The notes beneath the pieces were generated by a model. That model ran no database searches. It was given only the letters and a program-made list of their open reading frames with translations, and was not told the DNA's origin. Positions 24,682-64,000 of a stretch of DNA of 64,000 bases are shown one piece after another (within the stretch, counting starts at the first letter, position 1; the number at the start of each line of letters is the position of its first letter). A program made the position numbers and the translations under genes. The stretch comes from Marsupella aquatica (lineage: Eukaryota > Plantae > Marchantiophyta), in NCBI GenBank assembly GCA_973895155.1, contig OZ316893.1, forward strand, positions 9,363,839 to 9,427,838, given 5' to 3'.

Positions 24682-24859
24682 ATCGCCCCCCTAGCTGGGA
24701 GTAAGGTCCCCTAACTCTAGCTAGCCATGAGTTCTACAAGGCTGATATACACATTTTTAAGTATGAAGATCAGGAGGCCGGGTGCAAGTGAGCCCCATTG
24801 ATCACCTTCCTGCAATCCATATCGGCCAAGAGAACACAAATGATAACTAGTTGGCTTCA

Positions 24860-43668: not shown

Positions 43669-45198
43669 CAACTACATTTTTGCATTTCGGGACCAGGTGT
43701 AACCTAACCCAAGAATACGTTTGTTCCATTAAAGTTGGACTATACGTTGTTAATCTCCGGACTGTTGTCAGATGTCGTCCGGAGATTCGACGGGATCAGA
43801 TAATGTTGAATGTCGTGACGTTAAGTTTACGTCCTTTAAGACACGATAAGTTACCTCGTATCATACGTTGTACCTCTCATTACGTCTTCCTAGACGAGGT
43901 AACTTACCTGTTTCCTAAAGACATAAATTAGAACGATGTATAGGACGACATCCATAATTTTAGGCATTTGGAACGACGTATCTGCAGATACATTGTCATA
44001 GAATACCATGCGTACATTGGGAAAAACGAAGTTAATTCCACATATCAGCATTGGACAGACTCAACTATAGGCGGGAGGTTCACTATAGCCAGCATTCCCG
44101 AGTGAAGACATCAAAGGTCCTCAGTGTAGAGAAGTTGAACCGTGGGAGGCAAAGTGTTTAGCTATGGTGCGGAAGTTCTTTGCAAATGTGCATTGTTGTT
44201 TCCTCCCACTTGGTGAGGAGGAGAAGATGGTTCAAGGGTTCTTTTACCGTGGAGGGCTTGTTGACAAGCTATGTACCTCACAGACCGATTTCTTGATTGC
44301 AAATACGTGGAAACAGGTTGTGGAGCACTTCAGTGACTATGTTGGCTTGATCGAGCATTTTGCTGAAACCTTGCATTTCATCTCTACTCGGTGGGTAGAG
44401 TGCTCCATTCTTGCCAACAAGCAGCTGGACCCAGGAGAGTTCTTGTTGCATCCGAGCAGTGATCGTGGTCTGGAAGATTCGCCCGAGGATGATGATGGTG
44501 AGGCCTACCCTCCCACCTTGTCTAAATGTGAGTTGTCACCCACTGGACTTCAGATTGCTATGTTTGATTACAAGGAAAGTTGTGCAGCCGAGGTGGAGGC
44601 TCAAAGGCTACAGGCCGGTGAAGCTATTGGCCGAAAGAATTGGAATGCCAGCCAAAGGCGTGCTTCGTACAACAAGAGGAAAGCGGACGAGGAGTACTAC
44701 TGGTTTGGAGAAGGGACTCCTTAATCAACATCAGTCTGGAGGGAGGTTGTAGAGGGATGACCATGACTCATGTAGGCTACATTTGCAGTAGAAAGGATGG
44801 TAGAGCTATAGTGTATCTCTATTTGGTCTATTGCAACAATAAACACATCCATGAATGTTATTTGTCGCAAAAATTGTGTGGTTTGAATGTTGTATCTTTT
44901 TCCTGTGATTAACATCGAAAATCATTTGTTACGTTGAATGAAACGTCGTATGTAAATTACTAACGTCGTTATACTCGTGGTAATATAATTTTGTCGCTAC
45001 ATACATCGTTAAGTACGTCATTTTTACCTTGTTACGAAGTAGAGGACGACGTTAAAGAGAGTTATAACATCAGATAATGGTTTGGTACACGACGTTGAAT
45101 CGTGTTACGTCGAGGAGGCTTAGCTATAAACGACGTAGAAAATTGTGCATCGACGTAAAATTCCAAGGATGACGTTAATGACAAGTATCCCTTGTAGC
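43669..45198. mobile_element. Small CACTA-like non-autonomous unit carrying a BRCT ORF
   Basis: Dense acgac/gtcgt/cgacgt motifs at 43740-44030 and 44920-45180; degenerate ends caactaca and cccttgtagc. Confidence 0.45.
44164..44724 (+). CDS. Single-BRCT-domain protein, 186 aa
   Basis: Intact ATG ORF; RGGLV..TDFLIA..FISTRWVECSILANKQLDPGEFLL fits the BRCT GG / THxI / WxxxS pattern. Confidence 0.65.
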   Translation: MVRKFFANVHCCFLPLGEEEKMVQGFFYRGGLVDKLCTSQTDFLIANTWKQVVEHFSDYVGLIEHFAETLHFISTRWVECSILANKQLDPGEFLLHPSSDRGLEDSPEDDDGEAYPPTLSKCELSPTGLQIAMFDYKESCAAEVEAQRLQAGEAIGRKNWNASQRRASYNKRKADEEYYWFGEGTP

Positions 45199-46179
45199 AG
45201 AAGGCCGAGGGATCATGTGCATAAATGTATGGTTGTTACTTGTTTCTTTACCAAGTTATTAACACAAGCCCATCCCACTCTCCAAATACATAGATGCCTA
45301 GGCCATGAAATATGTGTGTTTATATGCAAGGAGTGACAATAGTCAATACAAATGGTGATAGTGAGTCTATCATGTCAATCCTCATCGTCTGCAAGAGCTG
45401 ATGGCATGAAGCCCTTCCTACGGCGTGGGAAGATGGGAATCACAATGGACCATCCTCCCATGGTCTGCATCGGAACCATAATGCATTGATCCACTTGGCT
45501 AGGAAAAACTATAGTCTCACTAAACTCAGTCCCGCTTGGTGCAACACGGGTCGTGTCCACACGATAAAATCCACACTCATCCTTCACCATGGTAGCTCTT
45601 GCTGGAGGTGACATGATGGACTTGTGCCACCTCACCTCTAGCACCGTGGTGGTAAACGAGCCAAAATTAACATCCAAAATATCCAAGACTATGCCACAAT
45701 AAGGAACCTCAACATCACCTATATCGGTCACCATATATACTCCAGAGTTACAAGTACTCTTCTTCATATGGTCCGTCCTCCAAGTCCGAAAATGGTGCCC
45801 TGACTCATACATGTGAGTATGAGTCATAGCCCACATCGAAGGCCCCCTAATGATGTTCTGTACATCAATGGGAATGATTGTAGGGCCATGCATTGCCAAG
45901 AGCCCCTCCATGCGCTCCAAGGCCCATATGCGAAATGATGCATGAACACGCTCTCGTGCTGCCCCTATCCGCTGCTGCTCCACCCATGCCCTGCAATTAC
46001 TGGGTCACATATACATTAGTGACCACCCTAAACCCTAAACCTTGAATGTACATTTTAAATCTAAGTAGGACTCAACATGAAGGATTATGTCCCTACCTAT
46101 ACAACTCTCTCCAATCTGACATCTCCGTGCAGTTCTCCAACACATAATTGTGGATCTGTCGGCAAAAAATGTCATCATG

Positions 46180-49100
46180 TGTTGCGCCGCTAACCTGGGC
46201 CTTAAATCCAGTTTAGTGCCATGGTGCGACCTCGACCACCAGTAAGGGTGAGGGTTCGGGCAAGGAGGTGTGTAGTGACCTCAATTAGCCCTAAGTCGGG
46301 CTAAGTCGATATACTTACTGGTATAACACCTGCGTAATTCGTACTAGTCATAGGTATATTTGTTTTCCACCGCTGGAATATTCCCTCAGTTAGTGACTCG
46401 GACTAACTCCCGGCTTGGGGCCTTTCAAGCCATCGACACGACAGGACCTTGTGACATACAATGAGTGGCAATCCCTACCATTAGTCCGCACCTGGTACGT
46501 CCCTTAAAATGGCGCCTTTGCCTAGACAAAGCATACACACAACACCAGTTACTTGCGGAAACATTAGGGGGAAAAGACTACATTTACTCAACGAAGCATC
46601 AGTTTACATGGTTGACTCGACTTCAAAGGGGGTCAGCAAGCCCAACGGTAGTCAATGCCCAGTCTCTATGAGGCCCTGCCTCGCACTTGCCCAACAAGCT
46701 CGACTCTGGCTCTCACTCCTTGGTGCGCTCTGACCCTGCTCAGGCCGAGACTCCCCATGCCTCACCTTTCTTCTGCTGAGATAACTAAGCCTTCTCCCCC
46801 CTCCATAGCGGAAGGGGAAGCCTAAATACTACAATCGCGGAGGAGAGCCGGAGGATACTGCCTTCCGGGATAATACCTACTGACTAACTACCTACTGACT
46901 ACTGGCCGCACCGCACTGACTGGTTGTCCGTCGACGACAAGGTGCCGACCGGGATGGCAGCGGCCAAGCCTACTGACAAACTCTAGTCCGTTGATGGACT
47001 CCATCCTACGTTGGCTGATCCTAACTGATCCGGCCCTAATTCTTCTTACTGCCGCTAATCGGCGCCTAATGACAGTCATTCTGTCGTTACGCCTAACCAA
47101 AAGATGTCGCTGTCTTAACTGCCTCGTGCGGCGCCTGCTTCCACCCTTCGCTAACCACCCCTTACGTGTGTGCAGTGGTTGGACCAGGGCTGGTCCCCTT
47201 GTCGGGACGAGACCTCGAGCCGCCTTGATCAGAGGTGGGCCCAGGTTTTCCCCGCTGGAGGACGAGCAGGGTAATGCGGTCTTGCAAGGCCCTGTTGTCC
47301 CGTACCGCCTCCTCCGCCTCATTTGCAGCTTCATCGGCCTCAGTCTGGAGCCGTGCTACCTCTAGATTGAGCTGGTCGATGGAGTTGCGATGGATCTGGT
47401 CCTGCGCTAGCAATTTATCTCGTTCGGCGGAGAGACTAGCCACCTGCTGTGCTGCCTACAGGAATTGTTTGTTGAGGTCGGTCAGGCTGGTAACCCGAGC
47501 CAAAGATTCTGAGCGTAATTGAAGCACGGTGTCGTCCAGCTTCTTGAGTTCGGCCTGCGCTCCGCTTAACTCCTGGTTTAGTCCGTCCCTCTGTTCGACG
47601 GTGTGAACTAACTCCTCGCGGCGGGTTGTTGTCTCCTCCTCGAGGTGCTCTACCAGCATCTGGAGGCGCCCGATCTCATTCCCCTTCGCCATGAGTTCTT
47701 CTTCCAAGCGGCTTACGATCCATGGTTGGTGCTCTAACATGAAGAAGGCTGGTTGAAAGTACGTCGAGACTTGTTGTCCGATGTATGTTGCCAGCTCCCC
47801 AGACATAGTCTGGCTAAACTTCTGGACCAGGTCGTAGGCCATGGTCCCCGGGGCTACTTGGTAGTCCTCCATCCTCTCGGGTACCGGTGGCTCCTCGGGT
47901 GGAGCAACGATCTCCTCTGTAGTCAGCGCTGGGGAGGGGAAGATATCTTTAGGTGGTGGAGGGATTGGGGGTGGTTGTACTGCGGGTAGTGGAGGCTCAA
48001 CGGAAGGGGGCGGCGGAATTTCCACAAGAGGAGGTGGCAGAGTATTAGTCGGGGCTTCCGGCTCGGGGTTTGCCCGAGGGACGGTAGTCCGCGTGCTCGG
48101 GGTTGCCTCCTTCGGGGCGAGGGTGACATTAGTCGGGGCTGAGGTGGCCATATTCTCTGGCCTCCCGCCGTGCCTTGTACCAGGCGAGGATAATGGCGAT
48201 ATGACTTCCCAAGTAAGTCTTCCCCCCAATAGCCATACCACCGTGAGCCCGCTTCAGCTCCCCCGAGAATCTTCGGTAGAAGAATTGGGCCCAGTTTCGT
48301 CGTTTGTACTGTTCCACCTGCACGATCGTGCAGAGGGAAATCTCGGATCGTGGCTCAATCATGTGTAGGGTAGTCCGTATGAAGTTAAGCCGCTCCATAC
48401 AGGTTAAGTTGGTGCACGCCCCCTGCTTGTATCCGTTGTCCGTCTTACCCTCGGGTTTGAAGTGCCGCGGCGTATACTCCTTATCCCGAATTCGGATTTC
48501 CACCGGCACCGGCCCGGTTGGTAGGCAGAAGATTTGCGTTAACCGATGCTCCGTGAGTGATAAGGCCTGCCCCGAAACCTTGGTGGTCGACGCGTCAGTG
48601 TCGAAATTGGAGATGAACTCACAAATTTCCTTCGGCCCGGCGGCGCACGGCCTCTAAAGCAAGTGAGCAAACTGCTCCAACTGATGCTCCTTTAGATAGT
48701 CCGCATGTTCGAGTTTCTTGATCGCGATCCAGACTACTTCGGGGACGCGGATTACCTGTAATAAGTTGGACTTCGGGTTATCCGGGGGCCGTCGGGTCTG
48801 GTTGGTCGGGGGGTTTACCGGGGCAGGTGCAGGCGCGGCGTTGGTCCGCGTTGTTGATTCGGGGGCCATCGTAGTCCTTGGCCGCTTACGAGGATGTTGT
48901 TCGAGTTGTGGACTAGCTCGCTCGGAACCCGAAGAACACTCTGTGTTGATTACTGGACGGACTTGGGACCGGTTCGGCGGTACACCGGTGGTCATCGGCT
49001 GAGGCACTGGTGGTATCGGGGTAGCCATATCCCAGTTGAAGGCGTTGGAGCTTTCCCCGAGGAATGTAAGATTACGCGCCACTTCCCATTGTTTGCTGAT

Positions 49101-50025
49101 GTCTTCTTGGCGCTTTTCGGCTGTGATCTGCTGGTCTAGGTACCCTGGAATCTTGTCGAACTCCGCTTGAGTAAGCCGTTGGCTGCCCTTCAGCTTAAAG
49201 AACTTTGCTGGGACCTCAAGAATCGCCTCTGCTACCGATCTAAGCCCTTCCTCGCTGAGATATAGTTCGGTGATGTAGTCTCGCAGCTTGTTGTAGCTGG
49301 AATCCCTGGTGATGGCTGTCCTTTCGCAATTAACCAGTGCTACCTTGGTCACCAGCTTCGCGTATCTTCGTTCGTAAGCGGCTTTCTTGGGACAAGAGTA
49401 CCAGTAAGTCTCGGAGAACTTAGCACCTACCTCGCCAAACAAGGTCCAGAATCCCAAGGCTGTAAGGGTCATACTAACCTCGTAGTCCGGTTTGTTGAGT
49501 CCACGTTCCCACCCGGCTGGTCCTCTTTCTCGTGGAGGCCTCGCTCGTCCTGACTAAATCTCGCCATATTCCGCTCCTCTCCCTCGATAATCTCCTTGTA
49601 AAGGTCGACTTGATTCGATCAGAAGGGCGAGTGGGTGGCAACGTCCGTGAATTCAAAAAAAGGTAGACATGAGCAAATGGCCCGCAGCACCATCGGCTCC
49701 TCTCTTATGGAGGTGCCAGGATGAGCCCGAGCGTGAGAAGGCCAGGCCGTTTGGTCATTGATAACGAGCTGAAGTCGGCGCCTCGGTCCAAGCGTGATTC
49801 CTCCAACTGATTTTTACTCCGCTGCCGCCACCGTACCTCTGTCGTGCGTAATAATCCTCTTCCTGAACTCGTAATTATTCGGTCATTTTAACCTACTCCT
49901 AATCTATTCATAATGGCAACAGACGGCTACACGTGCTATTCTACGCTATGGCTACGGTCCTAGTGCCCGTATAAGGCCTAATCTACGACCTGGATTCCGT
50001 TAAGTGACACGTTACCCGTGTCACA
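46180..50025. mobile_element. 3846-bp solo-LTR-like insertion with TGT..ACA ends and 5-bp TSD TCATG
   Basis: tcatg at 46175-46179 and 50026-50030; removing the insert restores the transposase frame KKRSLH-DDIFCRQ. Confidence 0.85.
47162..49472 (-). pseudogene. Degenerate accessory ORF resembling gypsy extra ORFs (plant-transposon domain, Pro-rich linker, coiled coil)
   Basis: ORFs 48654-49472 and 48129-48509 share a frame across a TAG; 47456-48241 and 47162-47443 likewise; one frameshift between; motifs ICEFISNF, NWAQFFY. Confidence 0.55.
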
Positions 50026-51648
50026 TCATGTAATGATCTCTTCTTTGACGCGCCCATCACTTGCAACCCACCGTTGTCATCATCTTGTGCCTCTTCCCAA
50101 GCTGTGGGAGCTTGTGTGTCCAAACTCCCTATCACCCCGCTTGAGTAGAATAGGCACTCCGACATGATATACCCTATTGCCATACTTCCCTCTGGTCGAG
50201 CGGGTTGGTGCACCCAAGACTTTAGCACTTTCATGAACCGCTCTACCCAATACATCCACCGCGCATGCATTGGACCAGCAATGGCTACCTCGTCCACCAA
50301 ATGACATAGCAAATGCAACTGCATGTCAAAAATACATGGGGGAAACACCTTCTCCATATTGCACATAACACGGGCAGAATGTTCCCTCATCTCGGGAATC
50401 TCACTCTCCTTTATTTCCTTGGCGCATACCCACCTGTATGGGGTACTCAAAATTTTGTCAAATTATTAGTATGATAAACATATGCAATGATCATAGCATA
50501 AATATATGCCAACAAGACTATGCTCACCTGAAAATGGAGCACAACTCATACACTGTATGTCAGAGTAGGCGTCGCTGTCTAGAATCATCGCAACAACGCA
50601 AGACAGCAGGTAACACATGCTGAATCAACTTGTGATAATTATGAGACTTCAAGCCTATTGGGGGTATGTGGTCATCCCTTGTAGTGCACCCACGGAAGCC
50701 GACTCCGTAATGGCTAGGGAACTTCATTTCACATATCATCCCGTTCATCTCCTTCAATATCTGTCTTGGCAAAACCCAAGGAGCAGGTGGCTTCACTAGA
50801 AGAATCCGAGGTAAACTGAGACCGCAATATGTGACTCATTTTGGCTCATGTGACTTCATTGTGACTCAACGTGACTTGACCCACGCTGTGACCCTTGGAG
50901 TTGCAAAAGTTGAGACCAAAAAATGGAAGTCACTATTGATACTGGGCTTTGCAACTTGTTTGATACCCATTTGTGACTGATCTGTGACTTTATTGTGGAG
51001 TCTAGCCTTGTTTCTACGTGACTGCAATATGACTTCAGCGAGTCACATCGTAAGTCACAAACATGACTTACCCACATTCAACAACGACTAGCGTGTGACC
51101 ATTTAGTGTCACAGGAGAGACCAATGGAGACCCTAGCCCGCGTCACACAACAGAACCATTTGGGACTCTATATACTCATGTTTATAACTAATAAGGTTCA
51201 CATGCAAGTTATAACCATGACTAATGAACACAGAGGGACAGTTCATAAGGAGAGAGAGCACTCCACATTACAATACATAGAAACCTGATGTTCTAACTTT
51301 AGAAATATAACACATTGAATACAAGAAATGAACATAGCATGAATGACATCCACATGAAACAAAGCATCATATAAGCAGATCCTACATAAAACATTCATAA
51401 GAATTAAACACAATCACAATCTTGCTAAAAAATGAAGATCATTTGAATTCCAATGGAATAGTTTACAATGTGATCAATGTAATTCAGACAAAACAGGAAC
51501 TCATAATTGATGACTGCAGGATGAGATAACTGAAAGCACATGCATGATACTATGAATCTCCAAGAGGACATGATTCTTGTACTACTTCTTGACATCTAAA
51601 ATCTACATAACATGACTCACACTACAAACAAATAATGGCATGACATTG

Positions 51649-54600
51649 TTATGGATCCTCTATGAACTTGCTTGGCCATAATACCAAAGAACCTACAGCA
51701 TCTCCAAGTGTCTTTTGAGGAGGATCATCATTTGTGTTTGGAATGGGAAGGACAGCTTTAGGTTTCACTAGTAATGTGACTAACACTACTGAATAACCTG
51801 GGGGAATCCTCTTGCCATGGAACGATGTGGAACCAACCTGCACTCTGCCAAATCCTACTCGTGTTCCACTCTCATCAACAGCTAACAAGCCACTTTGTCC
51901 CTCAGCATTAGGTGCTTTCCCCACTTCCACCTTAGATCTTTCTGCCAGCACCGTTCTTGGAGGTTTGTATGAAACCTTTGACGTGGCTCTGCTCCCACCA
52001 GCAGACTTGCTTCGTGTGCGCATGCTTCCTCTCTTCACAGTAGTGAAGCTAGGCTCAGTAGGTTCCTCTGTTAGGACTGTCACAGTAGCAGGTTCATCAC
52101 CTGGAAGTGTCATACCAACTAACTCTTTGGTTGGATTTATCTCAACAAGAGGCACACCTGTCATTGAGAATGATACATTCTGCAAATCATTTATCTCTGC
52201 AATGGAGTCAAGATCTACATAGCATGAATCTGGCTCAATGGTATCATTGTCATGCTTGCTGATATCCTCATTTGCCCCAACATTGATATCATCCACTCCC
52301 TTGCCAATGTCATCCTCATCCAAACATGGTTGACTGCCCTCTGTCAAACAAGTTGCTTGTACAGACTGCAACTTTGTTGTCTCTAAATTACAGCGAGTAT
52401 TTGCCAGGTTCTCATACTTCTTCTCTGTAGCACCTGTCTTATTCTCTATGGACACAACAACCACAATATATGTTACTGAAAATAACACATTCAACAAACA
52501 ATGTCAATTCAAACTATACATTTAATAATCATATCCCACACAGTTGTAAAGGCCTTACCTTCAAGCCTACATGTCGTTGGCATGCCAGAAGAGTGCATCG
52601 ACTTTGCCACCTCAAGTGGTGATGGTGGAACTCCTGCAGAATTGGAATCAATTTTATCTCTCACCGACACAACAGCTTCCATTAATGTCTTGAAGTTCAC
52701 ATGGAACAAGTCAGTCAATGAATTCAAACGTTCATTGATCTCTGGAAGACATGTTTTGACAGCCTTCAAACGACCACTTATCTCTGTAAGTGAAGATCCA
52801 CCTCCCTACATGACACAGGGGTATAGGTTCAATCACTCCATATGAAATGTTGGGCAATATATGCACAATCAATGTTATATACAGTGTACACCTGAAATTC
52901 AACACGGGTCATTCAATTACCAATCAGAACTCATATAACTTACATGCTTGGAGGATTCAGATGCACCCTCTTGAGCCCGGGTGTTCACAATTTCAGCCCT
53001 CAACTCTTCTTTTGAAGGGCTTTGCCCCAATTGGGCTTTCTGCACATGCATGGCAAACACAAGTTATCATTATTATTCAGGGAACGTACACTAAAAAACA
53101 AAGTGAACAGTACATAGTGTAGCATAAATTACATAGCTAGGCCATTGATTCTTACCAAACGTTTTGCTGTCGGTGCAGTGCCGGTCCTTCCTGTCAGATT
53201 AGGGTTCTGAACACTCAACCTGGCCTCGGTCATCTGTGAACTCTTCTTTTTTGAAGCATTTGTTACAAAATAAGCTACTAACCTTGCCCATACTTTATCA
53301 TCACAACTGGCTGGTGGAGGCATATCTGGCTTCTCCCCACCTTCCTTCCAAGCCTTATGCATTCTCCACCTCTCTTGCTTGATGATTTTACCTGCTGTAC
53401 TCTCTAAGCAACCTATGTCCACGCCATCATCACTGCCCACATAATTCCATTTGCCAGCAATATTTTCACATACAGTCTTCCAATCTTTTGGATGTTGTTT
53501 TCTAAAATTAATAACACTCACATCTAACCAACGCAATACTTCAGCTTTCAAATCAGCATGCCATCGGTTCTTGCGAGGACACTCAGCATCCACCCATTGT
53601 CTCATTCAACTTTACGTTCCCTTTCTTTGTCACCTCCCCTCGTGCACTGCTCTCGATAGTATTGGGCGTTGTATTGGCCACCCCTTGATTCACCCTACCT
53701 GGGGTTCTGAAGCCACCTGGGAAAATACAATGCCATTCATGCTTGAGAACTACATACAGTAGAATGGATGACAGCAACATTCAATGCTTCACTTCAAGAA
53801 AAATTCTTCAAACTCACATACCTGTAGCTCTGCCTGTAGATGCCTGTGCAGGGACTGCACTCTGGAATTGTTGCGACCCTGGACCACCTGTCCAGCCTAG
53901 TATAGGGGCCGGATGATGTCACTTTCTAGGTATGTGTGTGCAAACAGATGTACTGAAAACTAAGTACAAACTGTAGGAAAACAACTGAACATTCACCGAC
54001 ATACCTGGCCCCCTTCCGTGCTGCATCTGCATAGGGGCATTAGTGAATACTTGAGTCGATGGTTCGACTGTCCAATCTGCACACATACATTTTCTATCAT
54101 TATACATGTGCAGAATCCCCCCCACGTGAATGGACTCCAGATATAATGAGTTCTTCCATTGCTGACAAGATCAGATATTACCTGCCCCTCTTCCAGTGTT
54201 TGTAGGTACTGTATTTTGATATCCCTGCCAATTACCTTCACCACCTTCCCAACCTTGTTCATTCCACGACCCACCACCATCCTCCCAACCTGGTTCAACC
54301 CATGTTTGTCCTTGTGGACATTGGAACTGATCATTACCAGCATTTGCCCATTCAGGTTGGGCAGAATCTGCATGCAATGGCAGGTGGACAGAATTTCATG
54401 TTGTCTGCATCCAATACATCCCAAACAATGTCAAAAATTGATATGCAGTCTGAAATTCAGGAGTGCCATGCCTTCACAAAGAACTGGCATATAGATATAT
54501 ACTCACATCCCCATGGTTGAGGTGGACGTCCATACCCACGAGATTGTGGGTTTGGACCTGCTCTGCCTCTACCACGGGCATAACCTAGAGCTTGCCCCCT

Positions 54601-55411
54601 GCCATAGTATTGGGCACCAGCCTGGGATCTACCACTACTACCACCTCGCCAACCTTGATCAGAGGTCAGCCCCCCTGCTGGTATGGTGCATGCACAAGCT
54701 TCGAAGGCAAAACAAAACTGGCAGGATGCTGCATCACATCACCAACTACAATGTCAGGAACTAAGCAAGGTACATATGTGTAGTACTGAACATATGAAAC
54801 CTCTAAACAAGATTTTTTAACTCAAAACCTTGTTGGGAAAACTACTTACCTGTTTCTTTTGGGGCTGCTCTGCAATGTATTCATCTTCATAACCCCCATC
54901 CTCATCCATTTCCTCTGGAAAATACTCATCATCTGCATCTTCTTGTCTAGTGTCTGCACCCACCTGTGCAGCATCAATGTCATCTCCACATTCTGCCATT
55001 GTAGGTACGACCTTCTTGCTCAACCTGTCACTCCGACGCACAGGCCCAGAGATAGTGCTGGTCACCCTTCTTGCGTACTCCTTTTGTTTCTTTGAAAATG
55101 CTGTGGCTCTACAACATTCCAATATGAGAATACAGTCACAATTTCAGTGCCACATTGAACTATTCATGTCACACAAACTCAGCGGAGGGGTGTAGTTGAG
55201 AATCGTTCCCTTACAATTCAGCCACATCCTTTTCCAGATCCAGTTCTGCGATTTTGGCTTTCACGTATGCTCGTTGTTCCATAGCTTTCCTTTCATACTC
55301 ACACATCTCTGTGTCACTCTGTTCCATCCTACTGGACCACAAAAACATGTCATCTATGGTCACCCCGTATAACACAATGCAACCACAATCACCAGGCATC
55401 CATCCATACAT
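51649..55411 (-). CDS. CACTA TnpA-like multi-exon gene (Ptta/Transposase_24-like region and Tnp1-type C-terminal domain); exon structure approximate
   Basis: 53129-53605: PPASCDDKVWARLVAYF..KKSSQMTEAR; 51649-51900: VGFGRV..FHGKRIPPGYSVVLV..LPIP..TLGDAVGSLVLWP; GT-AG sites between short exons. Confidence 0.7.
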
Positions 55412-55483
55412 CTGTGTTGCTTCAGAATTACTTTATTACACATCCTTCCCCTCACTAATGTCCATGCAAACAATTCACATTAC

Positions 55484-58400
55484 TCATGGCACAGGCACAC
55501 TGTTGGCATCTGCATCTCTGAATTCGCCTCCTTCAGCAAATGCATCTACCCTTGTCACAGGAATGAAGTCCCCGCTATCATGAACTACAGGCACTTGGTC
55601 TGAATGCCGACGATCAAAGGCACTATGAGATTGTAAATGAAACTCAAGGTTTGATCCTTCCATCTGACGTTGCCTGGCCTGTTTATGACACACTACACGC
55701 CAACCTGGGGAGTCTTCCACATCCAGGAAGAAAGCTTGCTCCACCTGACTAGGAAACACAAATGGCTCAGACCATTCAGGCAATTTCCCTCTGAAATTGG
55801 CCAGCAAGAAACCGTCGTTGTCTCTCTTCATGGTAGCCCTGTTACCAAGCCAATCCTGCCGCACCCATGAACCTTTCATAAGAATCACAGGACTGGACAC
55901 CGCCCCATAGTCTAGAGCCCATATGTCAACTAATTCTCCCACATATCCCATCTCCATCCAGGCCCTGTCGTGATTGTGGCTCTGTTGCTCAAATACAGTG
56001 ATGAGCCCGCAGTCATTCGTCACCCTGTAGGCACTGTCACCATCCTTCACTCGAAAGTGATTCCCATATGCTCTCATCCGTTTGTAAGTCTTCACTTTCA
56101 GGCTAGGGGCATTAGACAGTAGGTAAATGTCTGCATCCATGTCTGGGTGGGTCTCGTGATGCTCTCTAATTGCCACTCTGATCCACTCCATGAAACCTGG
56201 AAAAGTTGTTCCTGTAGTGGGATGGGCCACCTTCAATGACTCATACTCCCTGAACGAACAACCACACAACATTAGCTTGGGTAAACATGAACAGGCTGAA
56301 GGAGAAAACCACACGAACACAACATTTAAGCTCATGAACTGGATTATAGCACATGTATGCACTCACTGTATCCAGGGTTCCATCACCACAGTGTTGTGCA
56401 ATACAAAGTCATGTGCCAAGTCTCTCATAGATATGGTTATGTTCTTTGTGGTTGCAGCCCCTTCCAGTACTTCACCTATCACCCCTTCCTCCTCATCAGA
56501 ATTCCACACCCTGGTCTTCACATGCTCATATTGTGCTATGTATTTGGTCAGAAATCCCAAAGTCTCATCCTTGATGTAACCTTTAGCCATGCTTGCTTCA
56601 GGTTTGTAATATGTTCTCACGTGACCTTTGAGTAGCTTCATGTACCGTTCCAAAGGGTACAACCAATGAGCACTCACAGGCCCAAATTGGTGTAGCTCTT
56701 CCACAACATGGACAAGTAGGTGGGTCATGACATCAAAAAATGCGGGAGGAAAATAAATCTCCAGGTCACACAGCACCTGAGCGACATCTTCTGTCAGTTG
56801 TGGGAAGTGTGTTTCATCCCAAACCTTCACACAAATACGACAAAACACATCACTGAGTCGCATGATCACAGTACGAACAGGCTTCTGCAACAGGCCCCTC
56901 AGGCATAAAGGCAACACCTGTTGCATCAACATATGGTAGTCATGGCTTTTCATACTACCAAGCTTTCTAGTCATGATATGCTTCTTGAAAGCACTGCCAT
57001 AGTTTGAAGGAACCTTCAAAGAACTCAACCTCTGCACAAATAGTTCCCACTCTGTGTCTGTCAGAACATAGGGCGCTTGGTACTTCAAGAGCACATCAGC
57101 TCTGTGGGCATGTGGCCTCAACCAAAGATGGGGTTTCATTCCCCTCTGTTCAAGATCCAATCTCACTGAACTAGTGTCTTTCTCCCCACACAAGAATTTG
57201 AGTAGACTCTCACAAATATTCTTTTCAATGTGCATAACATCAATGTTATGTTTGCTTGGCTCAAACTCCTGCATCGTTGCAATGCAAAAGCGTCAGGAAA
57301 TGCCTCAAGTTTAGTCTCTCTCTTCGAAATGAATGCACATGCTCTGAACCAAAACATGTATCCCAATTAGCATCAACTCCAAGAGGCTTACCCTCCAGTA
57401 CTTGAGCTCCAAGTCCAATATGCTCAGTCTTTTTACACCATATCGCTTTATTGGATCACTCACTCCATCTTCCCTGCCCCCTCGTTTGATATAGTCATCC
57501 CTCAGTGCTCCCCACTGCCTGATCTCCTTTTTGGTCACTCGTGCCGGGGGTCCACGTTGCTCAATCTCATTGCCAAAGTGTGCAATCAGTGTCTGTCTTT
57601 CTCTGTAAGGGTGATCTGCCTTCAGAAAACGACGATGGCCCATGTATATCACTTTCTGCAGGGCTCTGGAGTACTCACTGGTGACATTGCGCCCACAGAT
57701 AGTACAAGCACAATATCCTTTTGTTGTTTGGCTTGATATCATCCCATGGGCTGGGTAGTCAGCTATAGTCAGAATGACAATGGCTCTAAGGATGAATGGG
57801 TTTAACCTCCCAAGCCTCTGTAGGACATCATATGTGAGAACTCCTTCCTCCCAAAGCTTTCTCAATTCCTCCACTAGGGGAGCCAGAAACACATCTATGT
57901 TGGCAGATATAGCACTGTCTGGCCCTGGTATCAGTAGGACCATCAGAACAAAAAATCGCTTTGTAGTCATCCAAGGATGAAGGTTATAATTCAAAATAGT
58001 TACAGGCCAGCACGAAAATTTGTTGTTCTTGTCTCCAAATGGATTTACCCCATCCAATGACAGCCCAAGTCTGACATTCCTCGGCTCAACAGCAAATTCG
58101 GGATACATCTCATCTATGAGTTTCCATTGCCTTGAATCTGCAGCATGTCGTTGTAGCCCATCATCACTTTTCTTGTCAGCTGCCCAAGTCATCATCTCCG
58201 AGATGGCACGGCTTCTGAACATCCGCTGAAGTCTGGGAATGAGTGGAAAATGACGAAGTACCTTGGCGGGAACCATAGACTTTCCTGAGTTCCGATACCT
58301 GTGCTTCCCACACTTAGGGCATGTCAACGATTCTTTATACTCCTTTCTGAAAAGAACATGCCCATCAGGACAGGCATGGATCAAATCATAGTTCAATCCA

Positions 58401-59215
58401 AGATTAGATATGCATCTTTTTGCCTCGTACATGTTCTTGGGCAAAATATTACCATCTGGTAGCACAGTTGTTCGCAAGAATGCCAACAACTCAGAAACCA
58501 AAACGTTGGGGACATTGTGATTGCCGCAAATGTTCAGGAACATGATGACAAATCCCAGTTTAGAACATTTGCTACCGGGGTACAAAGACTTCCTGCCTTC
58601 CTGTATTTGCAGGGGAGAGCCAAACATCCCATCATGCCCAGGGGTTTCCTGCCCTATCTCAAACTCATCAAGAGGCTCTTTGACAGGGGGCACACTTGCA
58701 TCTGCAGCCGTATCCTTTTCGTTGTCCAGCCCATCGTGAAATGCATCCAAGTCTTGGAAGATGTCTCTCACCATCTCTTCCACATGAATTCCTTCGTCAC
58801 GTGGTGCTGCCTGAGCACCATCCCGTTGGAGAGCTGACAACCCACAGAGACCAGCTACAATATTTTCAAATGCACCAGGCAGAACCTCACTTGCCCGTCT
58901 TGCAGCATTGGCAACATCAAATTCTAACCTCCACTCCTCGTCGGAAGAATCTTCCTCTGCAGGATCATTCCAAACTCGATGTCGTGGATCTCTTCCATGA
59001 ACCGCGATATGCCACCAAACCTCATTCAGACCCCTGGTACGGGATCCTTGGCACATTGCACAAGGACATCTCATCCTACTGGCTCCTGAAAGTCTGGTTC
59101 GTAACCTTTCACGCTGCCAAAGCTTATTATCATGGCGTGATATCCTTGTGGGATGATGCAAAGGCAGTGCCTGTGCCCTGGGCTGGGTCTGGGGAGGGTG
59201 GTGACCAGGGTGCAT
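55484..59215 (-). CDS. CACTA TnpD/Tnp2 transposase (Transposase_21, DUF4218, DUF4216), 3 exons, apparently intact
   Basis: Exons 59215-57392, 57268-56367, 56249-55484; CPCAMC, IHACPDGH, CPKCG, LRHFPLIPRLQR, RNVRLGLSLDGVNPF, DVMHIEKNI, KSHDYH, FPPAFFDVMTHL, LYPLERYMK, EPFVFPSQVEQAFF. Confidence 0.95.
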
Positions 59216-59562
59216 TGTAACGGGCTGGGAGCTCTGCAGTCATGGACAGCAGTGAACAAGGATGCCTAATGGTGGTATTTGTGTTCCATATATCCCTGAC
59301 TGTATCTGCCAAAAGAGTTAACATAACGTGTACTAAATTCTCACAAACCCTAAACCACCCCAAAAGAAAAAAAACAGGTTCGCGAGTAGTGTACCTATTG
59401 TCAAGTGAATGACACAAAATTCCTAAATGTTGGAGGGTGTCACCACCTCCTCCGCTGTCCTCAAATGTACCGCCTCTGCATGTACACCCATGACCATATC
59501 AGAGTCCAATCATGTATAGTCACAGGCACAGGTGTGAGAGCGGTATCACATATCTCACCTTA

Positions 59563-60195
59563 TTACCAGGTGAGATATGGGTACCAACCCTGTTCTTGAT
59601 GCCACTCAGACCTCAAGTACTCAGGCATGTACATTAAATCATCAAGGTCTAAACCCTGCTCATGCCATGGGGGTCTTGCATCCGTGCCTACAAGCAATGG
59701 ATGCAATGCCCTCCACTGGGGGCAAGTTGCTACCAAGTCCCTCCACCGTGTATTAATTTGTCTATATTTGCAGATATCTTGTGCACAGGACACCATAAGA
59801 ACCCTCGGCCATACATGTGAAAGAACTATATCATCTGCCAAATCAGGCAACAAGGAACCACCTACAACATCGGGCTTGTCTAACTCATCTGCTGAAAAGT
59901 AGATGTCCACTTCGGACAGTGCATCCTCATTCACGATAGATTTAGCGTCTCTTGCATCCTCAGGCGGTGCCAAGAAATGTTTTAGCACCAACCCATGCAG
60001 GAGAGTCCTAACTATGGCCAGCCATATGGCAACCCGGAGGAGGAGCCGTAATAGCGCCTGTTGATCTAGGAAAGGCAACATACCCACCAAAGTCTGCCGC
60101 CGAGGTTTGAGTCCACCCAGTACGTTTACAGTGACACCCCCAGGCAGCAGGAAACAACAATCCGCCAACAGTAAAATAAGCCCAACTGCCACCAA
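59563..60195 (-). CDS. F-box-like protein (start uncertain, probably spliced)
   Basis: LLPDLADDIVLSHVWPRV..KYRQINTRWRDLV resembles the plant F-box motif. Confidence 0.5.
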   Translation of the reverse strand: MVAVGLILLLADCCFLLPGGVTVNVLGGLKPRRQTLVGMLPFLDQQALLRLLLRVAIWLAIVRTLLHGLVLKHFLAPPEDARDAKSIVNEDALSEVDIYFSADELDKPDVVGGSLLPDLADDIVLSHVWPRVLMVSCAQDICKYRQINTRWRDLVATCPQWRALHPLLVGTDARPPWHEQGLDLDDLMYMPEYLRSEWHQEQGWYPYLTW

Positions 60196-60287
60196 TCATA
60201 ACAAGGTACATTAGTTCAAAGATCACATTTATTTCAATGATCTGATTTATACAAAAAAACTTGTGTCCAAACTGATGCTACTACTCC

Positions 60288-61166
60288 TCACTCTGATTCA
60301 GAATTGCTAATGACCCATTCCTCACTTGTTGTCTCATAGTCCTCTCTATAAGGATCCTGACCCTTCCGTGGCCAGGCCTCAAAAAGATCATAGTCCATTG
60401 GGTTTTGACGCTTCCCAGCTGCTACTGATTCCACAAGCCAAGCATATGAAACCACAAACACATTATGGGACATGACATAAAAGCGAATGTCTCCCTTCCC
60501 AAACTTGCGGCAGGCTTTGGGATATGACTTAGTAATGACATGAGTGGTGTCCTCTGTTATATTCTCCTCCACTGTCCCACCTAGGTCAAGCACTGTGGAC
60601 TTGTACACTTTGCACTTAACCTCTCCAATTCCCGCCTCCACAAATACCATGCTCAGCCCTTTCAGAATGGGGGTTGGTTGCTTCGTCTCCTCAGCCAACA
60701 TACTCTTCAGCCTTGTAGAGCTCTGTCCTTTGTTGAGTACAGGTCCATATTGGAGATCAGCAAGCCGTGCCTTTGCTTCCCAGACTTCTTGTTCAGTCCA
60801 AGCTGATGCAGTAGCTTCTTCATCCTCCCACAACTCATATTGCTCAGTATCCTGTACAATCTTATGTGTTATAGAATCTGTGATCCAAGAGGCCTCAACT
60901 ACTTTTAGGCCTTGCTTAGTAATTGCAGAATTCATGTAGGACCATGACCACTTCTTTATCACTGATAGCCATGTCCCTGCAACAACATGTGTAGTCTCTG
61001 GAGTGATGTCCTGAACTACAGTGCCATGGAGCTCAGAGAATCGTTTCTGTACAGTTGGCCAATGCACTTTGGTCAACCCATGCTGGCGATGGACCAAAAT
61101 CGCTCTGACCCCTGTAAACACTGCTGGGTGGTCACACTTTCTACGTTTCCCAGGCTCCATGTACAC
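60288..61166 (-). CDS. Tandem BRCT-domain protein, about 290 aa
   Basis: Two repeats: VFTGV..HGTVVQDITPETTHVV..VVEASWITDSI and ILKGL..LGGTVEENITEDTTHVI..VVSYAWLVESV. Confidence 0.85.
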   Translation of the reverse strand: MYMEPGKRRKCDHPAVFTGVRAILVHRQHGLTKVHWPTVQKRFSELHGTVVQDITPETTHVVAGTWLSVIKKWSWSYMNSAITKQGLKVVEASWITDSITHKIVQDTEQYELWEDEEATASAWTEQEVWEAKARLADLQYGPVLNKGQSSTRLKSMLAEETKQPTPILKGLSMVFVEAGIGEVKCKVYKSTVLDLGGTVEENITEDTTHVITKSYPKACRKFGKGDIRFYVMSHNVFVVSYAWLVESVAAGKRQNPMDYDLFEAWPRKGQDPYREDYETTSEEWVISNSESE

Positions 61167-61752
61167 ACACCCTACGTGATGACAGTGAATTTTGGAAGAA
61201 TGGGTTCACCTGACAATACAAGGACAACAAAATTCCTGCTTTTTGAGTTGATCTGGCCCACTGGTGCTCAGGTCCGATTTTGATAGGTACAAGGGATATG
61301 TGAACAATACATACTAGGCACCTGCACGGATGCAGGACATTGTTTGAATATATACTACAAAATCCATATCCGCGGTGAAATGAAGTGCAACCAACTTGTC
61401 ATGGCACATACATATTTTGTTGTAAAGGAGGAGACATTCAATGACAAACTTATAGGGCAATTTGATTAATTGCATGCCTGATAATTTATACGCTTACAAC
61501 TTAGAAGTCCTGTTTTAATTTAGCAGTCTGATGAAAGTGTTTATGAAAATGACCACTCAACCTAAATACTTCCAAGAAGGCTTGTAAGGATAAGTTTTTA
61601 TAGGCATGTACCCAGCCACTGACGCCAGAGCACAAGATAAGTGCTGCCTATATAAACTCGCCTACCCAACTCCTTTTCAAAATTGGAATCTCTGCAATCT
61701 CAAAAAATAGTACATCCACATCAGGTGCACTGTGCATGTACAATGTTCAGCT

Positions 61753-62433
61753 TCACATCCAAGATATGTGATCTCTCACAGGAGTGCGCAAGGTAGGATC
61801 AATGGCATGGCGATGACAATAAAATATCCATCGATCAACACCATGTGCAGAGTGATCATAGATTTCTCTGTCACGAGCATAACCCTCTGCTTGACGATCT
61901 TTCAGGCAATGATAGTGCCACATAGTGGGACACCTAGCACAGTGGACTATGTCAGTCCAGTAGTCATCATCATGCTCACCACATGCCTTGCACCTATGAA
62001 GTGGGCAAGCTGTGGCATGAGCAGGCAAACACTCAAAACAGAAAAATCTCACACAAAAACGGTCTGGACATTTCCTAACATTTGCTGCAGCATCAACAGA
62101 GCCCTCATAGGACCCCAACTTCCCACACTGTGCACACTTAGCCTGCTTCTCCAAACAATCAGTGCACATCCAGTCTCCCTGGTGTGTTGACAGGAGGCCC
62201 ACGCTTGGACAATTGTTTTCTGCAGCAAGGTCAGACTCCGGGTTGAGGTGGAAATGCCTCATGCAAGGGCCCTCACAAATGACCAGGCCCCCACCATCGT
62301 CACAAATGGCACAACAATGAGCTGCCTTCTGGAAAATCTGACTTGCAGAGAAGTTAGTAGCATCTGCCCCAAGTACACCTGTGTTTCTCACCTCTGTCAC
62401 ACGCTTTTTGGCTTGAATTTTAGGCTGTGCCAT
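61753..62433 (-). CDS. Stand-alone EDM2/NSD-type PHD-finger module, 226 aa
   Basis: CAICDDGG..CEGPCMRHFH..CTDC..CAQCGKLGS..CPLHRCKAC..CARCPTMWHYHCL..IFYCHRHAID..TPVRDH, colinear with the PHD region of plant EDM2 as recalled. Confidence 0.85.
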   Translation of the reverse strand: MAQPKIQAKKRVTEVRNTGVLGADATNFSASQIFQKAAHCCAICDDGGGLVICEGPCMRHFHLNPESDLAAENNCPSVGLLSTHQGDWMCTDCLEKQAKCAQCGKLGSYEGSVDAAANVRKCPDRFCVRFFCFECLPAHATACPLHRCKACGEHDDDYWTDIVHCARCPTMWHYHCLKDRQAEGYARDREIYDHSAHGVDRWIFYCHRHAIDPTLRTPVRDHISWM

Positions 62434-62444
62434 GCCTGCGCATG

Positions 62445-62588
62445 AGATAGACTCTACAATTTAGCAGACTACACAAAAAGTAAAATATATTTAGGATTTA
62501 AGGTACAAAGGCATTTAGATAGACTCTACAATTTAGCAGACTGCACAGAAAGTAAAATATATTTAGCATTTAAGGTACAAAGGCATTT
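62445..62588. repeat. 72-bp tandem duplication just upstream of the PHD ORF
   Basis: agatagactctacaatttagcagact..aaggcattt twice. Confidence 0.85.
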
Positions 62589-63202
62589 GCTACTGCAATG
62601 AATTGGAATGGCCACACAAGGATGCAGAGCACACATACTTTTGGTATGTTGAGCCCACACACAAAATTGATCCCCTAATACAATTTCTCCACCAACACCT
62701 CAATTTTAATTGTGGCTATGATTCACCAAAGGAGATCTGCAACAACATTTCATGCATTTGAATCACATACAATAGTCGTGACATGTAAAACAGGCATTCT
62801 TCGAAGAGGATTGGTATGAAGCAGTGTCATAAGGGTTGTAATTTATACATCCTAAATAGGCTATGATAGTGGCTGAGACAAATAAGTGAGGCATAAATCA
62901 CATTTTGCATATTATCACATGGCCCATTAATTCATTCAACGTTGCAATGTTCACCAGGTTAAAGCAATATTAAAGCAGTCTTTCAATAGAGACTTTTAAG
63001 CGAGTTTGCTAGCCTCTTAAATTAGGATATTTTGCTTAGTGCAGGCATACTAGGATAAGTTATGTACTGTTGACCCTAAACCCTGGACCCAAAATTGCTC
63101 ATACATCAAAATTTTAAGTAAATATCCTCTGTGTTGAAGGCAGAGTGTTAAGCTATAGGTCAATGGTATCTGGTCTATGCATGTGGTGTGACAAGTGGTC
63201 CT

Positions 63203-63652
63203 CTAGAGCATGTGATCCAAACATGTGTAGACACCAAAGCCACCAGTGGTGGGGTCTGGGAGGGCAGGACAAGTGACATCACCAGGCACACTGCAGGATG
63301 GCGAGTGGTTCCAGATGATACATTGTGCTCTGTGCAAAAACCGGCATCCAAGAGAACGGTCATCCAATTCTGGGCCAGAAGCCCTACAGGCAGGACAGTC
63401 ATATTGGCAACTGTGCACACACCCTTGGCACCTAATTTGTGGCGGGTCATGTACAAGAGACACAAATACCAAGGATGTCGGGAAGGGTACTGAAGCAGGT
63501 AGAGGCCGGTTGTAGTTGTTCCTGGAAACAACAGGGTACTCAAAGTACCATGCAGACTGGGCTGGAAGGATCCCAAGTCTGACATACTCAAGGCGCAACA
63601 TCTCTGCCTTGCATGCAAGCCGCACATGTTCAGCGTTGCGGGTCCTCACCAT
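63203..63652 (-). CDS. Cys/His-rich putative zinc-finger protein, 149 aa
   Basis: ATG ORF with CQGCVHSCQYDCPAC..C..H...C..H..C..C..CLDH; family not recognised. Confidence 0.4.
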   Translation of the reverse strand: MVRTRNAEHVRLACKAEMLRLEYVRLGILPAQSAWYFEYPVVSRNNYNRPLPASVPFPTSLVFVSLVHDPPQIRCQGCVHSCQYDCPACRASGPELDDRSLGCRFLHRAQCIIWNHSPSCSVPGDVTCPALPDPTTGGFGVYTCLDHML

Positions 63653-64000
63653 TTAAGTGTTGCTTTCGTTGTGACGTCCTCTATTCACGTCCTTTGATGA
63701 GCAAGGCGAGCAGGAGGTTGACTTGCCTCACCAACAACAACCAACCTAAACTAATCAGTTCCCACTCACTGTCTTGGTTCCAACTACAGGTCATAGTATA
63801 CACATAGCATGAAACGTGCATAGTACATATTTGATTCTGAGTTTATGAGTTTCCTAAGACAAAGAGCTTGGTGATAAACCCATGTTCTCGACGGACATGT
63901 ATATCAATCATATTAAAATCCTGTTTTTTCATCCAGAAGGACCGAAAGTCTCACCTTGCAGGTTGCAGTAGAGAGAAAATTCACTGGCTATCGTGTTGTG

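What the first reader, a model, noticed from the sequence alone, without database searches (positions are those of the whole stretch)
50794..64000. Large CACTA transposon carrying a co-oriented cassette: EDM2-type PHD, tandem BRCT, F-box-like and zinc-finger ORFs
Seen: a CACTA terminus at 50794, then TnpA and an uninterrupted TnpD, then four closely packed same-strand open ORFs (59563-60195, 60288-61166, 61753-62433, 63203-63652), with no second terminus visible between them and the transposase. Known: canonical CACTAs encode TnpA/TnpD and sometimes a ULP1-like protease; captured host fragments are usually decayed; Mutator-like VANDAL elements encode VANC anti-silencing proteins. Inference: a histone-mark reader, a phosphopeptide/DNA-repair module and an SCF adaptor could form a maintained accessory system against silencing or for handling repair at excision sites. 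I know of no described CACTA with this set.
Basis: partly seen in the sequence, partly recalled or inferred. Interest (0 to 1): 0.92.

Follow-up and report, generated by a model that had tools for sequence, protein, structure and literature searches.

The report
Plant transposon carrying chromatin-reader accessory genes
A repeated plant cut-and-paste (CACTA) transposon carries, ahead of its transposase, three extra genes that evolution has kept intact, including a stand-alone copy of the histone-reading module of the plant anti-silencing protein EDM2 and a DNA-repair-type BRCT pair, which likely help the element stay expressed and get its cuts repaired, while the fourth (F-box-like) gene is missing from many copies.

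Summary
Largely confirmed, with corrections. The CACTA end at 50794 is real: it cuts an older CACTA transposase gene and has 14 subterminal motifs. No second end lies between it and 64000. TnpD has two introns but is open once spliced; this copy's TnpA is frameshifted. The region is repeated in four public runs, and one contig joins the TnpD start to the BRCT gene. Three extra genes look maintained: an EDM2-type PHD (stand-alone clade, synonymous sites saturated), a double BRCT made by internal duplication (homologs 54-60% identical), and a Cys/His-rich ORF of no known family (homologs 55-56%). All 8 listed indels in the cassette fall in spacers. A distant locus has the same PHD-then-BRCT order (weak). 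The F-box-like ORF is a weak motif in a hypervariable zone and is deleted in many copies. The BRCT lacks the canonical phosphopeptide pocket, and the PHD has lost an acidic residue that EDM2 keeps. Function (anti-silencing, repair docking) is inferred only: no RNA, far end, TSD or whole genome was available. New variant of a known kind; no description found in 10 literature searches.

The parts
50794..50808 (+). CACTA terminus (3' end of the element; TIR length not fixed without the other end). Preceded by CTT (50791-50793), the expected TSD
   Evidence: sequence; cuts an older TnpD frame
50817..51154 (+). subterminal GTGAC(T) repeat array
   Evidence: 14 motifs in 360 bp vs 0.78 window mean; repeat families
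51649..55143 (-). TnpA-like multi-exon gene; this copy is frameshifted near 53599; 5' exon boundaries not fixed
   Evidence: Transposase_24 E 3.3e-4, below cutoff; three-frame view; most copies carry 2 more bases at 53599
55211..55327 (-). 38-codon ORF between TnpD and TnpA, role unknown
55484..59215 (-). TnpD transposase, exons 59215-57392, 57268-56367, 56249-55484; open after splicing (about 1160 aa); DDE, CxxC and HxxxH motifs visible
   Evidence: Transposase_21 E 9e-68, DUF4218 E 3e-27, DUF4216 E 1e-4, Transpos_assoc E 2e-4; in-silico splicing
59563..60195 (-). 210-codon open frame (first ATG 60081) with a weak F-box-like motif near 59701-59865; hypervariable, deleted or replaced in many copies
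   Evidence: Pfam F-box E 0.06; atlas F-box clusters 0.84-0.91; frame length reached by 1 of 2000 Markov simulations; joints
60288..61160 (-). double-BRCT gene (290 aa), two repeats from an internal duplication, about 50-aa linker
   Evidence: Pfam BRCT E 2.8e-13; repeats align gap-free over 91 aa, E 2e-11; 2 homologs at 60 and 54%
61753..62433 (-). stand-alone EDM2/NSD-type composite PHD gene (226 aa)
   Evidence: profile search and names; NSD2/NSD3 PHD in PDB E 7.5e-12; clade of 11 stand-alone rows
63203..63652 (-). conserved Cys/His-rich ORF (149 aa), no known family; zinc binding plausible, not shown
   Evidence: 2 homologs at 55-56%; no Pfam, atlas or fold match
45375..50793 (-). older CACTA TnpD (C-terminal part) into which the element inserted; itself split by a GC-rich insertion at about 46180-50007
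   Evidence: DUF4218 E 3e-30 at 49986-50462; tblastn pieces 50802-50596, 50450-50004, 45866-45414

Best explanation
This is a copy of a repeated plant CACTA (En/Spm) transposon family that carries, upstream of TnpD and TnpA and on the same strand, three accessory genes under purifying selection (a stand-alone EDM2-type PHD module, a duplicated BRCT and a Cys/His-rich orphan) which likely act for the element, the PHD as a chromatin-binding factor that would help keep silenced copies transcribed and the BRCT pair as a likely docking adaptor for host break-repair proteins at cut sites. Shown: terminus, gene order, repetition, protein-level conservation, and EDM2 ancestry of the PHD. Inferred: that all three genes lie inside the element (the far end is outside the window); that they are expressed (splice-acceptor-like sites precede the PHD, BRCT and TnpD starts, which would fit one promoter with alternative splicing); and both functions. 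Host EDM2 promotes full-length transcription through intronic heterochromatin (PMC7472560, PMC7529245), which is what a methylated, multi-intron TnpD/TnpA unit needs. The element keeps only the PHD part, with a changed first pocket, so it would be a re-tuned reader or decoy rather than an EDM2 copy. The F-box-like frame is a variable insert, not a core gene. This particular copy is probably non-autonomous (TnpA frameshift, private amino-acid changes).
For: Terminus cuts an older TnpD. No end motif in 51000-64000. 6248, 12565, 631 and 915 contigs laid in 4 of 4 runs, with depth in all 30 bins. In X6 the F-box/BRCT bins (216-435) match the TnpA/TnpD bins (161-454), and record 30 joins 59149-59501, 59536-59646 and 60120-61042. 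8 of 8 listed indels in 59240-63660 lie in spacers (coding fraction 0.60, p about 0.002 counting 7 independent; 0.015 if only the three core ORFs count). PHD homologs: pS 0.73-0.85 vs pN 0.24-0.42 in 8 of 8 pairs. Same start and end in BRCT homologs, same end in PHD homologs. 11 stand-alone PHDs form one side of a branch, SH-aLRT 94. L002 has a PHD homolog followed about 440 bp downstream, same strand, by a BRCT-N-like frame (4.7 bits; 0 of 300 shuffles reach it). At 4 codons in PHD and the Cys/His ORF the majority allele of other copies equals the residue of the closest homologs.
Against: Far TIR and TSD not seen; no whole genome is held. Depth rises 4-8 fold (X6) and 2-3 fold (X2) beyond about 61.6 kb, and no listed contig spans BRCT to PHD, so the PHD/Cys-His part could belong to more numerous derivatives or another element. 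Depth is no copy number, and the laid stretch held no single-copy control. Only 12 of 96 indels, 15 of 95 joints and 40 of 1291 substitutions were listed. 9 of 9 listed substitutions in the four ORFs are non-synonymous (9 of 12 in TnpD), read here as mostly private decay of this copy. pS/pN is between distant loci whose transposon context is unknown, not among copies. L002 and L003 carry stops or a frameshift. The acidic residue before Cys1 is absent in 14 of 14 stand-alone PHDs, so histone binding may be lost. No functional data at all.
Confidence: 0.55

Rival explanations
1. Same anatomy, different job: the PHD and BRCT proteins steer insertion (tether the transpososome to particular chromatin) rather than counter silencing.
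For: PHD fingers are accessory domains of several Chlamydomonas TEs, with a proposed role in limiting harmful insertions (PMC9940879 passage). This copy sits inside another transposon in a TE nest.
Against: The PHD is a separate ORF, not fused to the transposase. One insertion site says nothing about preference. EDM2's described role is transcriptional.
Confidence: 0.17
2. The stretch beyond about 61.6 kb (PHD and Cys/His ORF) belongs to a different, more abundant element or derivative lying next to or inside the CACTA, so the cassette is a composite.
For: Depth step at about 61.6 kb in X6, X2 and partly X5; no listed contig bridges BRCT and PHD coding sequence; far end not seen.
Against: No terminal or subterminal motif in the spacer. 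X5 record 24 covers 61151-61699 in one piece. L002 shows PHD then BRCT at 43% PHD identity. The missing 5' part of the older TnpD is not within the window, so something continuous with the insertion runs past 64000.
Confidence: 0.15
3. Pack-CACTA-type passive cargo: host gene fragments captured and amplified without function.
For: Pack-CACTA capture is described (PMC13317346 passages). The F-box zone has at least 6 listed deletion or replacement joints, some at high depth. This copy and two of three related loci are damaged.
Against: Saturated synonymous sites with pN 0.24-0.42; conserved Cys/His, starts and stops across homologs at 40-81% identity; indels avoid the ORFs; a long-stemmed clade of its own rather than a recent EDM2 copy.
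Confidence: 0.09
4. The ORFs are ordinary host genes that happen to lie beside a truncated CACTA.
For: The homologs come from short unnamed contigs whose context is unknown.
Against: Depth and contig diversity like the transposase genes in 4 runs; a contig joining TnpD to BRCT. Intronless compact ORFs, unlike the window's intron-rich PCF11-like gene. None of the 9 stand-alone PHD/BRCT clusters looked up holds an annotated genome protein.
Confidence: 0.04

Closest known systems
CACTA/En-Spm superfamily (two-ORF elements: transposase TnpD plus ORF2/TnpA; PMC4158355 passages)
   Same: CACTA end, subterminal repeats, Transposase_21-DUF4218-DUF4216 transposase with introns, downstream TnpA-like gene
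   Different: three conserved extra genes and one variable ORF upstream of TnpD; the cited paper describes two ORFs
VANDAL/VANC anti-silencing system of Mutator-like elements (PMC13317346, PMC13547354 passages)
   Same: an accessory TE gene probably captured from a host chromatin regulator (VANC from MAIN; here PHD from the EDM2 family)
   Different: other superfamily, unrelated protein; VANC activity is shown, here nothing is; no target motif identified
EDM2 (ASI1-AIPP1-EDM2 complex), composite PHD (PMC7472560, PMC7529245 passages)
   Same: whole 2.5-PHD module through its C-terminal motif; profile E 1e-29 to 1e-24 to named EDM2 and liverwort proteins
   Different: stand-alone 226 aa, without the rest of EDM2; shorter second finger; acidic residue before Cys1 replaced (0 of 14 vs 86 of 89); separate clade
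TET/JBP-carrying EnSpm and other DNA transposons of fungi (PMC12730594 passages)
   Same: EnSpm elements keeping an epigenetic accessory gene, proposed to escape silencing
   Different: enzyme in fungi; here non-enzymatic reader and adaptor domains in a plant
BRCT proteins of break repair (BRCA1, Rtt107, DNA ligase 4 in PDB; DNA polymerase lambda BRCT)
   Same: BRCT fold by Pfam; weak PDB matches E 1e-3 to 1e-2. Plant Pol lambda binds Lig4/XRCC4 by its BRCT and is implicated in repair of TE excision sites (PMC4444747 passage)
   Different: donor not identified; resemblance to plant Pol lambda BRCT is recalled, and the only test (human 2jw5) gave E 1.1; canonical phospho-pocket Ser/Thr absent; long linker
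Pack-CACTA gene capture (PMC13317346 passages)
   Same: host-derived sequence inside a CACTA; fits the variable F-box zone
   Different: here the element also has TnpD/TnpA, and three cargo genes are conserved over deep divergence

Membership tests
CACTA/En-Spm | terminus beginning CACTA | tested here: met
   50794; cuts an older TnpD
CACTA/En-Spm | matching second TIR and 3-bp TSD | not testable with these tools
   beyond the window; no genome held; no match within 51000-64000
CACTA/En-Spm | subterminal repeat array (feature recalled) | tested here: met
   14 motifs in 360 bp vs 0.78
CACTA/En-Spm | DDE transposase with CxxC and H(3-4)H motifs | tested here: met
   Transposase_21 E 9e-68, DUF4218 E 3e-27; motifs read by eye in the spliced product; motif definition PMC12730594
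CACTA/En-Spm | second gene TnpA/ORF2 | tested here: met
   Transposase_24 E 3.3e-4, below Pfam cutoff; frameshifted in this copy
EDM2-type composite PHD | 2.5 atypical PHD repeats homologous to EDM2/NSD over full length | tested here: met
   profile positions 39-224 match named EDM2 proteins; NSD2/3 E 1e-11
EDM2 (whole protein) | ELP/methyltransferase-like, PGR and acidic domains | tested here: not met
   226-aa ORF, stop shared with homologs; EDM2 domain list from PMC7529245
EDM2-type composite PHD | acidic residue just before the first Cys (binds H3K4 in AIRE-type PHDs; role recalled) | tested here: not met
   0 of 14 stand-alone vs 86 of 89 long proteins
EDM2-type composite PHD | binding to H3K9me2 | not testable with these tools
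   needs a binding assay
phosphopeptide-binding tandem BRCT (BRCA1 type) | two BRCT repeats | tested here: met
   Pfam BRCT E 8.8e-6 and 2.2e-8 for the two repeats
phosphopeptide-binding tandem BRCT (BRCA1 type) | Ser/Thr-Gly plus Lys pocket in the first repeat and a short linker (definition recalled) | tested here: not met
   in alignment to BRCA1, repeat 1 has neither Ser/Thr nor Lys; repeat 2 has only the Lys; linker about 50 aa
DNA polymerase lambda-type BRCT | best match to a PolX-family BRCT | tested here: inconclusive
   human 2jw5 E 1.1, rank 35 of 38; no plant Pol lambda sequence was available to the tools
F-box protein | F-box motif above the family cutoff | tested here: inconclusive
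   13.7 bits vs cutoff 20.5, E 0.06; atlas best 0.91, F-box-named clusters; FBXL5 E 0.59
zinc-finger families (RING/PHD/other) | family or fold match for the 149-aa ORF | tested here: inconclusive
   no Pfam hit for it or 2 homologs; atlas blank; model pLDDT 52, no Foldseek match; about 7 Cys/His invariant in 3 sequences
VANC-like anti-silencing system | sequence-specific loss of silencing marks on cognate copies | not testable with these tools
   no methylation or expression data

The most novel reading that the evidence does not exclude
An old lineage of plant CACTA elements has built a multi-gene accessory module from host parts: the reader module of the anti-silencing protein EDM2, a repair-type BRCT that was duplicated and also occurs singly in another small CACTA-like element, and an orphan Cys/His protein. 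The module lets the element read through its own heterochromatin and engage end-joining at its cut sites, making it a CACTA counterpart of the VANC system with an entirely different origin.
Probability: 0.3. Interest if true: 0.88.

Novelty: new variant of a known kind. Interest (0 to 1): 0.68.

Why it matters
Plant TE anti-silencing factors with shown activity are few (VANC, TnpA). A CACTA family that has kept a stripped-down EDM2 reader under selection would be a second case of a transposon repurposing a host chromatin regulator. It offers a small, testable protein for asking how TEs get full-length transcripts out of heterochromatin. A TE-encoded BRCT adaptor would make it testable whether transposons influence repair of their own breaks. 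Natural deletion alleles of the F-box zone give built-in comparisons.

Tried and rejected
No whole genome held, so the far TIR, TSD and copy census could not be obtained. No RNA holder listed; this says nothing about expression. Structure prediction of the BRCT protein failed (pLDDT 33) and was not used. The Cys/His ORF model (pLDDT 52) gave no Foldseek match; the wide structural search was busy twice and not obtained. Scans for related loci were empty in viral contigs and genome contigs; metagenome contigs gave 3 short loci. No homolog search was left for the F-box-like ORF. The joint 59648>60138 with CT..AC ends was considered as a spliced intron and rejected: the letters between match 60122-60135, so it is the 59646>60120 deletion. 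The TAGTG at 59387 was considered as an end and rejected. The 40 listed substitutions were rejected as a dN/dS sample because they are a selected subset dominated by this copy's private changes (I mapped the 25 of 40 at or beyond 55967). The tree is the quick version, and the donor lineage of the PHD is unresolved. Host lineage not determined; a bryophyte is a guess from best-scoring named relatives. Earlier-findings look-ups by sequence, place and words found nothing on this family. Two papers were not held. No complex prediction was run, since no partner was in hand.


Full report
1. Observation. The window is plant DNA: a PCF11-like gene, a DUF4460/4461 gene, copia and CACTA pieces. No whole genome is held. 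CACTAGAAG begins at 50794 and is followed by 14 GTGAC/GTCAC motifs in 360 bp, against a window mean of 0.78 and at most 2 in any 360 bp of 59240-64000. The end is independently fixed by what it cuts: a second, older CACTA TnpD matches the element's own TnpD at 50802-50596, 50450-50004 and 45866-45414 and stops at the terminus (DUF4218 E 3e-30). Its 5' part is not in the window, so the insertion runs past 64000 or was truncated. No reverse TIR match better than 10 of 15 exists in 51000-64000, and none of the five TAGTG words beyond 59240 has subterminal motifs.

2. Core genes. TnpD is three exons with GT-AG introns of 123 and 117 nt, stop-free after in-silico splicing, with Transposase_21, DUF4218 and weaker DUF4216 and Transpos_assoc hits. 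'Uninterrupted' is thus right only for the spliced frame. TnpA is multi-exon (Transposase_24 E 3.3e-4, below cutoff). Most copies in three runs carry two more bases at 53599, so this copy is frameshifted there.

3. Repetition and linkage. Nine runs in seven studies and six organism codes hold part or all of 55000-64000; five hold half or more of its words. I laid four of them on 49500-64000: 6248, 12565, 631 and 915 contigs, with depth in 30 of 30 bins. In X6 the F-box/BRCT bins (216-435) equal the TnpA/TnpD bins (161-454), while the bin 49500-49983 is 7. In X3 and X2 that bin is itself high, and the stretch has no single-copy control, so these are hints, not copy numbers. X6 record 30 joins the TnpD start to the BRCT gene; X5 record 24 covers the BRCT start and most of the spacer to the PHD. 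Beyond about 61.6 kb depth is 4-8 fold higher in X6 and 2-3 fold in X2, and no listed contig bridges BRCT and PHD coding sequence. This is the main doubt about whether PHD and the Cys/His ORF belong to the same unit.

4. PHD. A profile of the ORF and four close homologs (81-47% identity) hit 483 representatives. The top seven are short stand-alone proteins; after them come proteins named EDM2 or PHD-type from Artemisia, liverworts, Selaginella, Ceratopteris and angiosperms (20 looked up). In PDB the best matches are NSD2/NSD3 (E 7.5e-12). In a quick ML tree of 140 rows (only rows covering most of the module were kept), the 11 stand-alone rows form one side of a branch (SH-aLRT 94, below the tool's 95 star), outside the main EDM2 group; the donor is unresolved. 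Between the window and three metagenome loci, and among them, pS is 0.73-0.85 and pN 0.24-0.42 in 8 of 8 comparisons; L001/L002 gives dN 0.29, dS 3.2. Two of those three loci carry stops or a frameshift, as expected for dead copies of a repeated gene. An acidic residue 2-4 positions before the first Cys is present in 86 of 89 long EDM2-like proteins and 0 of 14 stand-alone ones, which have His there. From recall, that residue binds H3K4 in AIRE-type fingers, so specificity has probably changed.

5. BRCT. Both repeats hit Pfam BRCT and align to each other without gaps over 91 residues (E 2e-11), which points to duplication of one captured repeat. Two homologs (60 and 54%) share start and approximate end. 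Against BRCA1, repeat 1 has neither pocket residue and repeat 2 only the Lys (pocket definition recalled), so phosphopeptide binding is not supported. I recall a resemblance to plant DNA polymerase lambda BRCT, which binds Lig4/XRCC4 and is implicated in repair of TE excision sites (PMC4444747, passages), but the only test available gave E 1.1. L002 has, about 440 bp after its PHD stop and on the same strand, a frame matching profile positions 9-72 (4.7 bits; none of 300 shuffled sets reaches it, best 4.6): weak but positionally predicted support for an old PHD-BRCT order. A separate 1.56-kb CACTA-like unit at 43670-45232 holds a single BRCT-like ORF (10.7 bits, 0 of 1000 shuffles).

6. Cys/His ORF and F-box-like ORF. 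The 149-aa ORF has two homologs at 55-56% over 97% of its length but no Pfam, atlas or fold match: a conserved orphan. The 210-codon frame is longer than chance (1 of 2000) and has a weak F-box motif. However, 6 of the 15 listed joints (of 95) delete or replace most or part of it, at depths up to 14365 in X3 and 186 of about 265 in X6, and depth at 59943 is low in all four runs. It is not a core gene.

7. Selection among copies. Of 12 listed indels (of 96), 8 lie in 59240-63660 and all 8 are in spacers; the one at 63652 keeps the ATG (p about 0.002 for 7 independent events, 0.015 counting only the three core ORFs). Against this, 9 of 9 listed substitutions in the four ORFs are non-synonymous, as are 9 of 12 in TnpD (25 of the 40 listed rows mapped). 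Six of the nine are sites where nearly all other copies differ from the window, and at four codons the majority allele matches the closest homologs. I read them as decay of this copy, and do not treat them as a dN/dS sample.

8. Mechanism. Shown: anatomy, repetition, conservation, EDM2 ancestry. Inferred: expression (acceptor-like sites precede the PHD, BRCT and TnpD starts; no RNA was available) and function. EDM2 binds H3K9me2 and promotes read-through of intronic heterochromatin (PMC7472560 and PMC7529245, passages). I commit to a re-tuned reader or decoy that helps keep the element transcribed, plus a BRCT adaptor for repair proteins: about 0.8 for three maintained accessory genes, 0.55 for the whole reading, 0.3 for the specific anti-silencing and end-joining version. 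Rivals: target-site steering, a composite of two elements, passive Pack-CACTA cargo, host genes.

9. Literature. A full CACTA is described as TIRs plus two ORFs (PMC4158355, passages). Precedents for accessory chromatin genes: VANC, probably from MAIN (PMC13317346, PMC13547354, passages); TET/JBP in fungal EnSpm (PMC12730594, passages); PHD fingers in Chlamydomonas TEs (PMC9940879, passages). A survey of 962 Spm-encoded structures mentions 'various accessory proteins' without naming PHD or BRCT in the section I read (bioRxiv 10.64898/2026.08.24.746577, abstract and section 6; its supplement is closed and may bear on novelty). Searches for CACTA+BRCT+transposon, CACTA+PHD finger+captured+transposase and the six-term TE/BRCT/PHD/F-box query returned 0 papers. 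EnSpm+accessory+PHD+moss returned only the Chlamydomonas paper. None of the 25 listed of 57 papers contains BRCT or EDM2. Searches were seen as listings. Repbase and most subscription journals were not searched.

10. Verdict. A real CACTA with a three-gene maintained accessory set and one variable insert. New variant of a known kind; function open but directly testable. Interest 0.68.

Noticed in passing
window 43670-45232: Small CACTA-like unit (decayed inverted ends at 43673-43684 and 45218-45229, ACGTC/GACGT repeat clusters at both ends, no clean TSD) carrying a single BRCT-like ORF at 44089-44724 (+) related to repeat 2 of the main element's BRCT protein (10.7 bits, 0 of 1000 shuffles). 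It suggests BRCT cargo in more than one family.
   Followed up: partly
window 45375-50793: Older CACTA TnpD split by a GC-rich insertion (about 46180-50007, probably an LTR retroelement remnant, with ORFs of no Pfam family at 47456-49553) and cut by the main element; it abuts a copia RT fragment at 42294-43671.
   Followed up: partly
window 62433 region; P0003, P0012, P0013, P0024, L003:754: Several stand-alone PHD homologs begin Met-Ala/Thr-Arg-x-Lys, reminiscent of the histone H3 tail (recalled); could be an auto-inhibitory mimic or just a nuclear signal.
   Followed up: no
window 62445-62588: 72-bp tandem duplication (96%) just upstream of the PHD start, duplicating an acceptor-like tract.
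   Followed up: no
window 59549-59579: Perfect 12-bp hairpin at the end of the F-box-like frame, beside a recurrent 34-bp deletion (59501>59536) and the left breakpoints of larger deletions.
   Followed up: no
window 55211-55327: 38-codon ORF between TnpD and TnpA with a heptad-like composition.
   Followed up: no
P0039 cluster: Triticeae also have short (227-339 aa) EDM2-like PHD-only proteins, in a clade separate from the stand-alone clade studied here; their genomic context was not examined.
   Followed up: no
window 23020-30314: Long inverted repeats (84-99%) at 23020-23466 and 29718-30314 enclose a copia fragment; probably another TIR element.
   Followed up: no
window 12313-18841 and 33273-34520: Host genes: PCF11/PCFS4-like (zf_PCFS4 E 8e-31) and DUF4460/DUF4461 (E 6e-26).
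   Followed up: no
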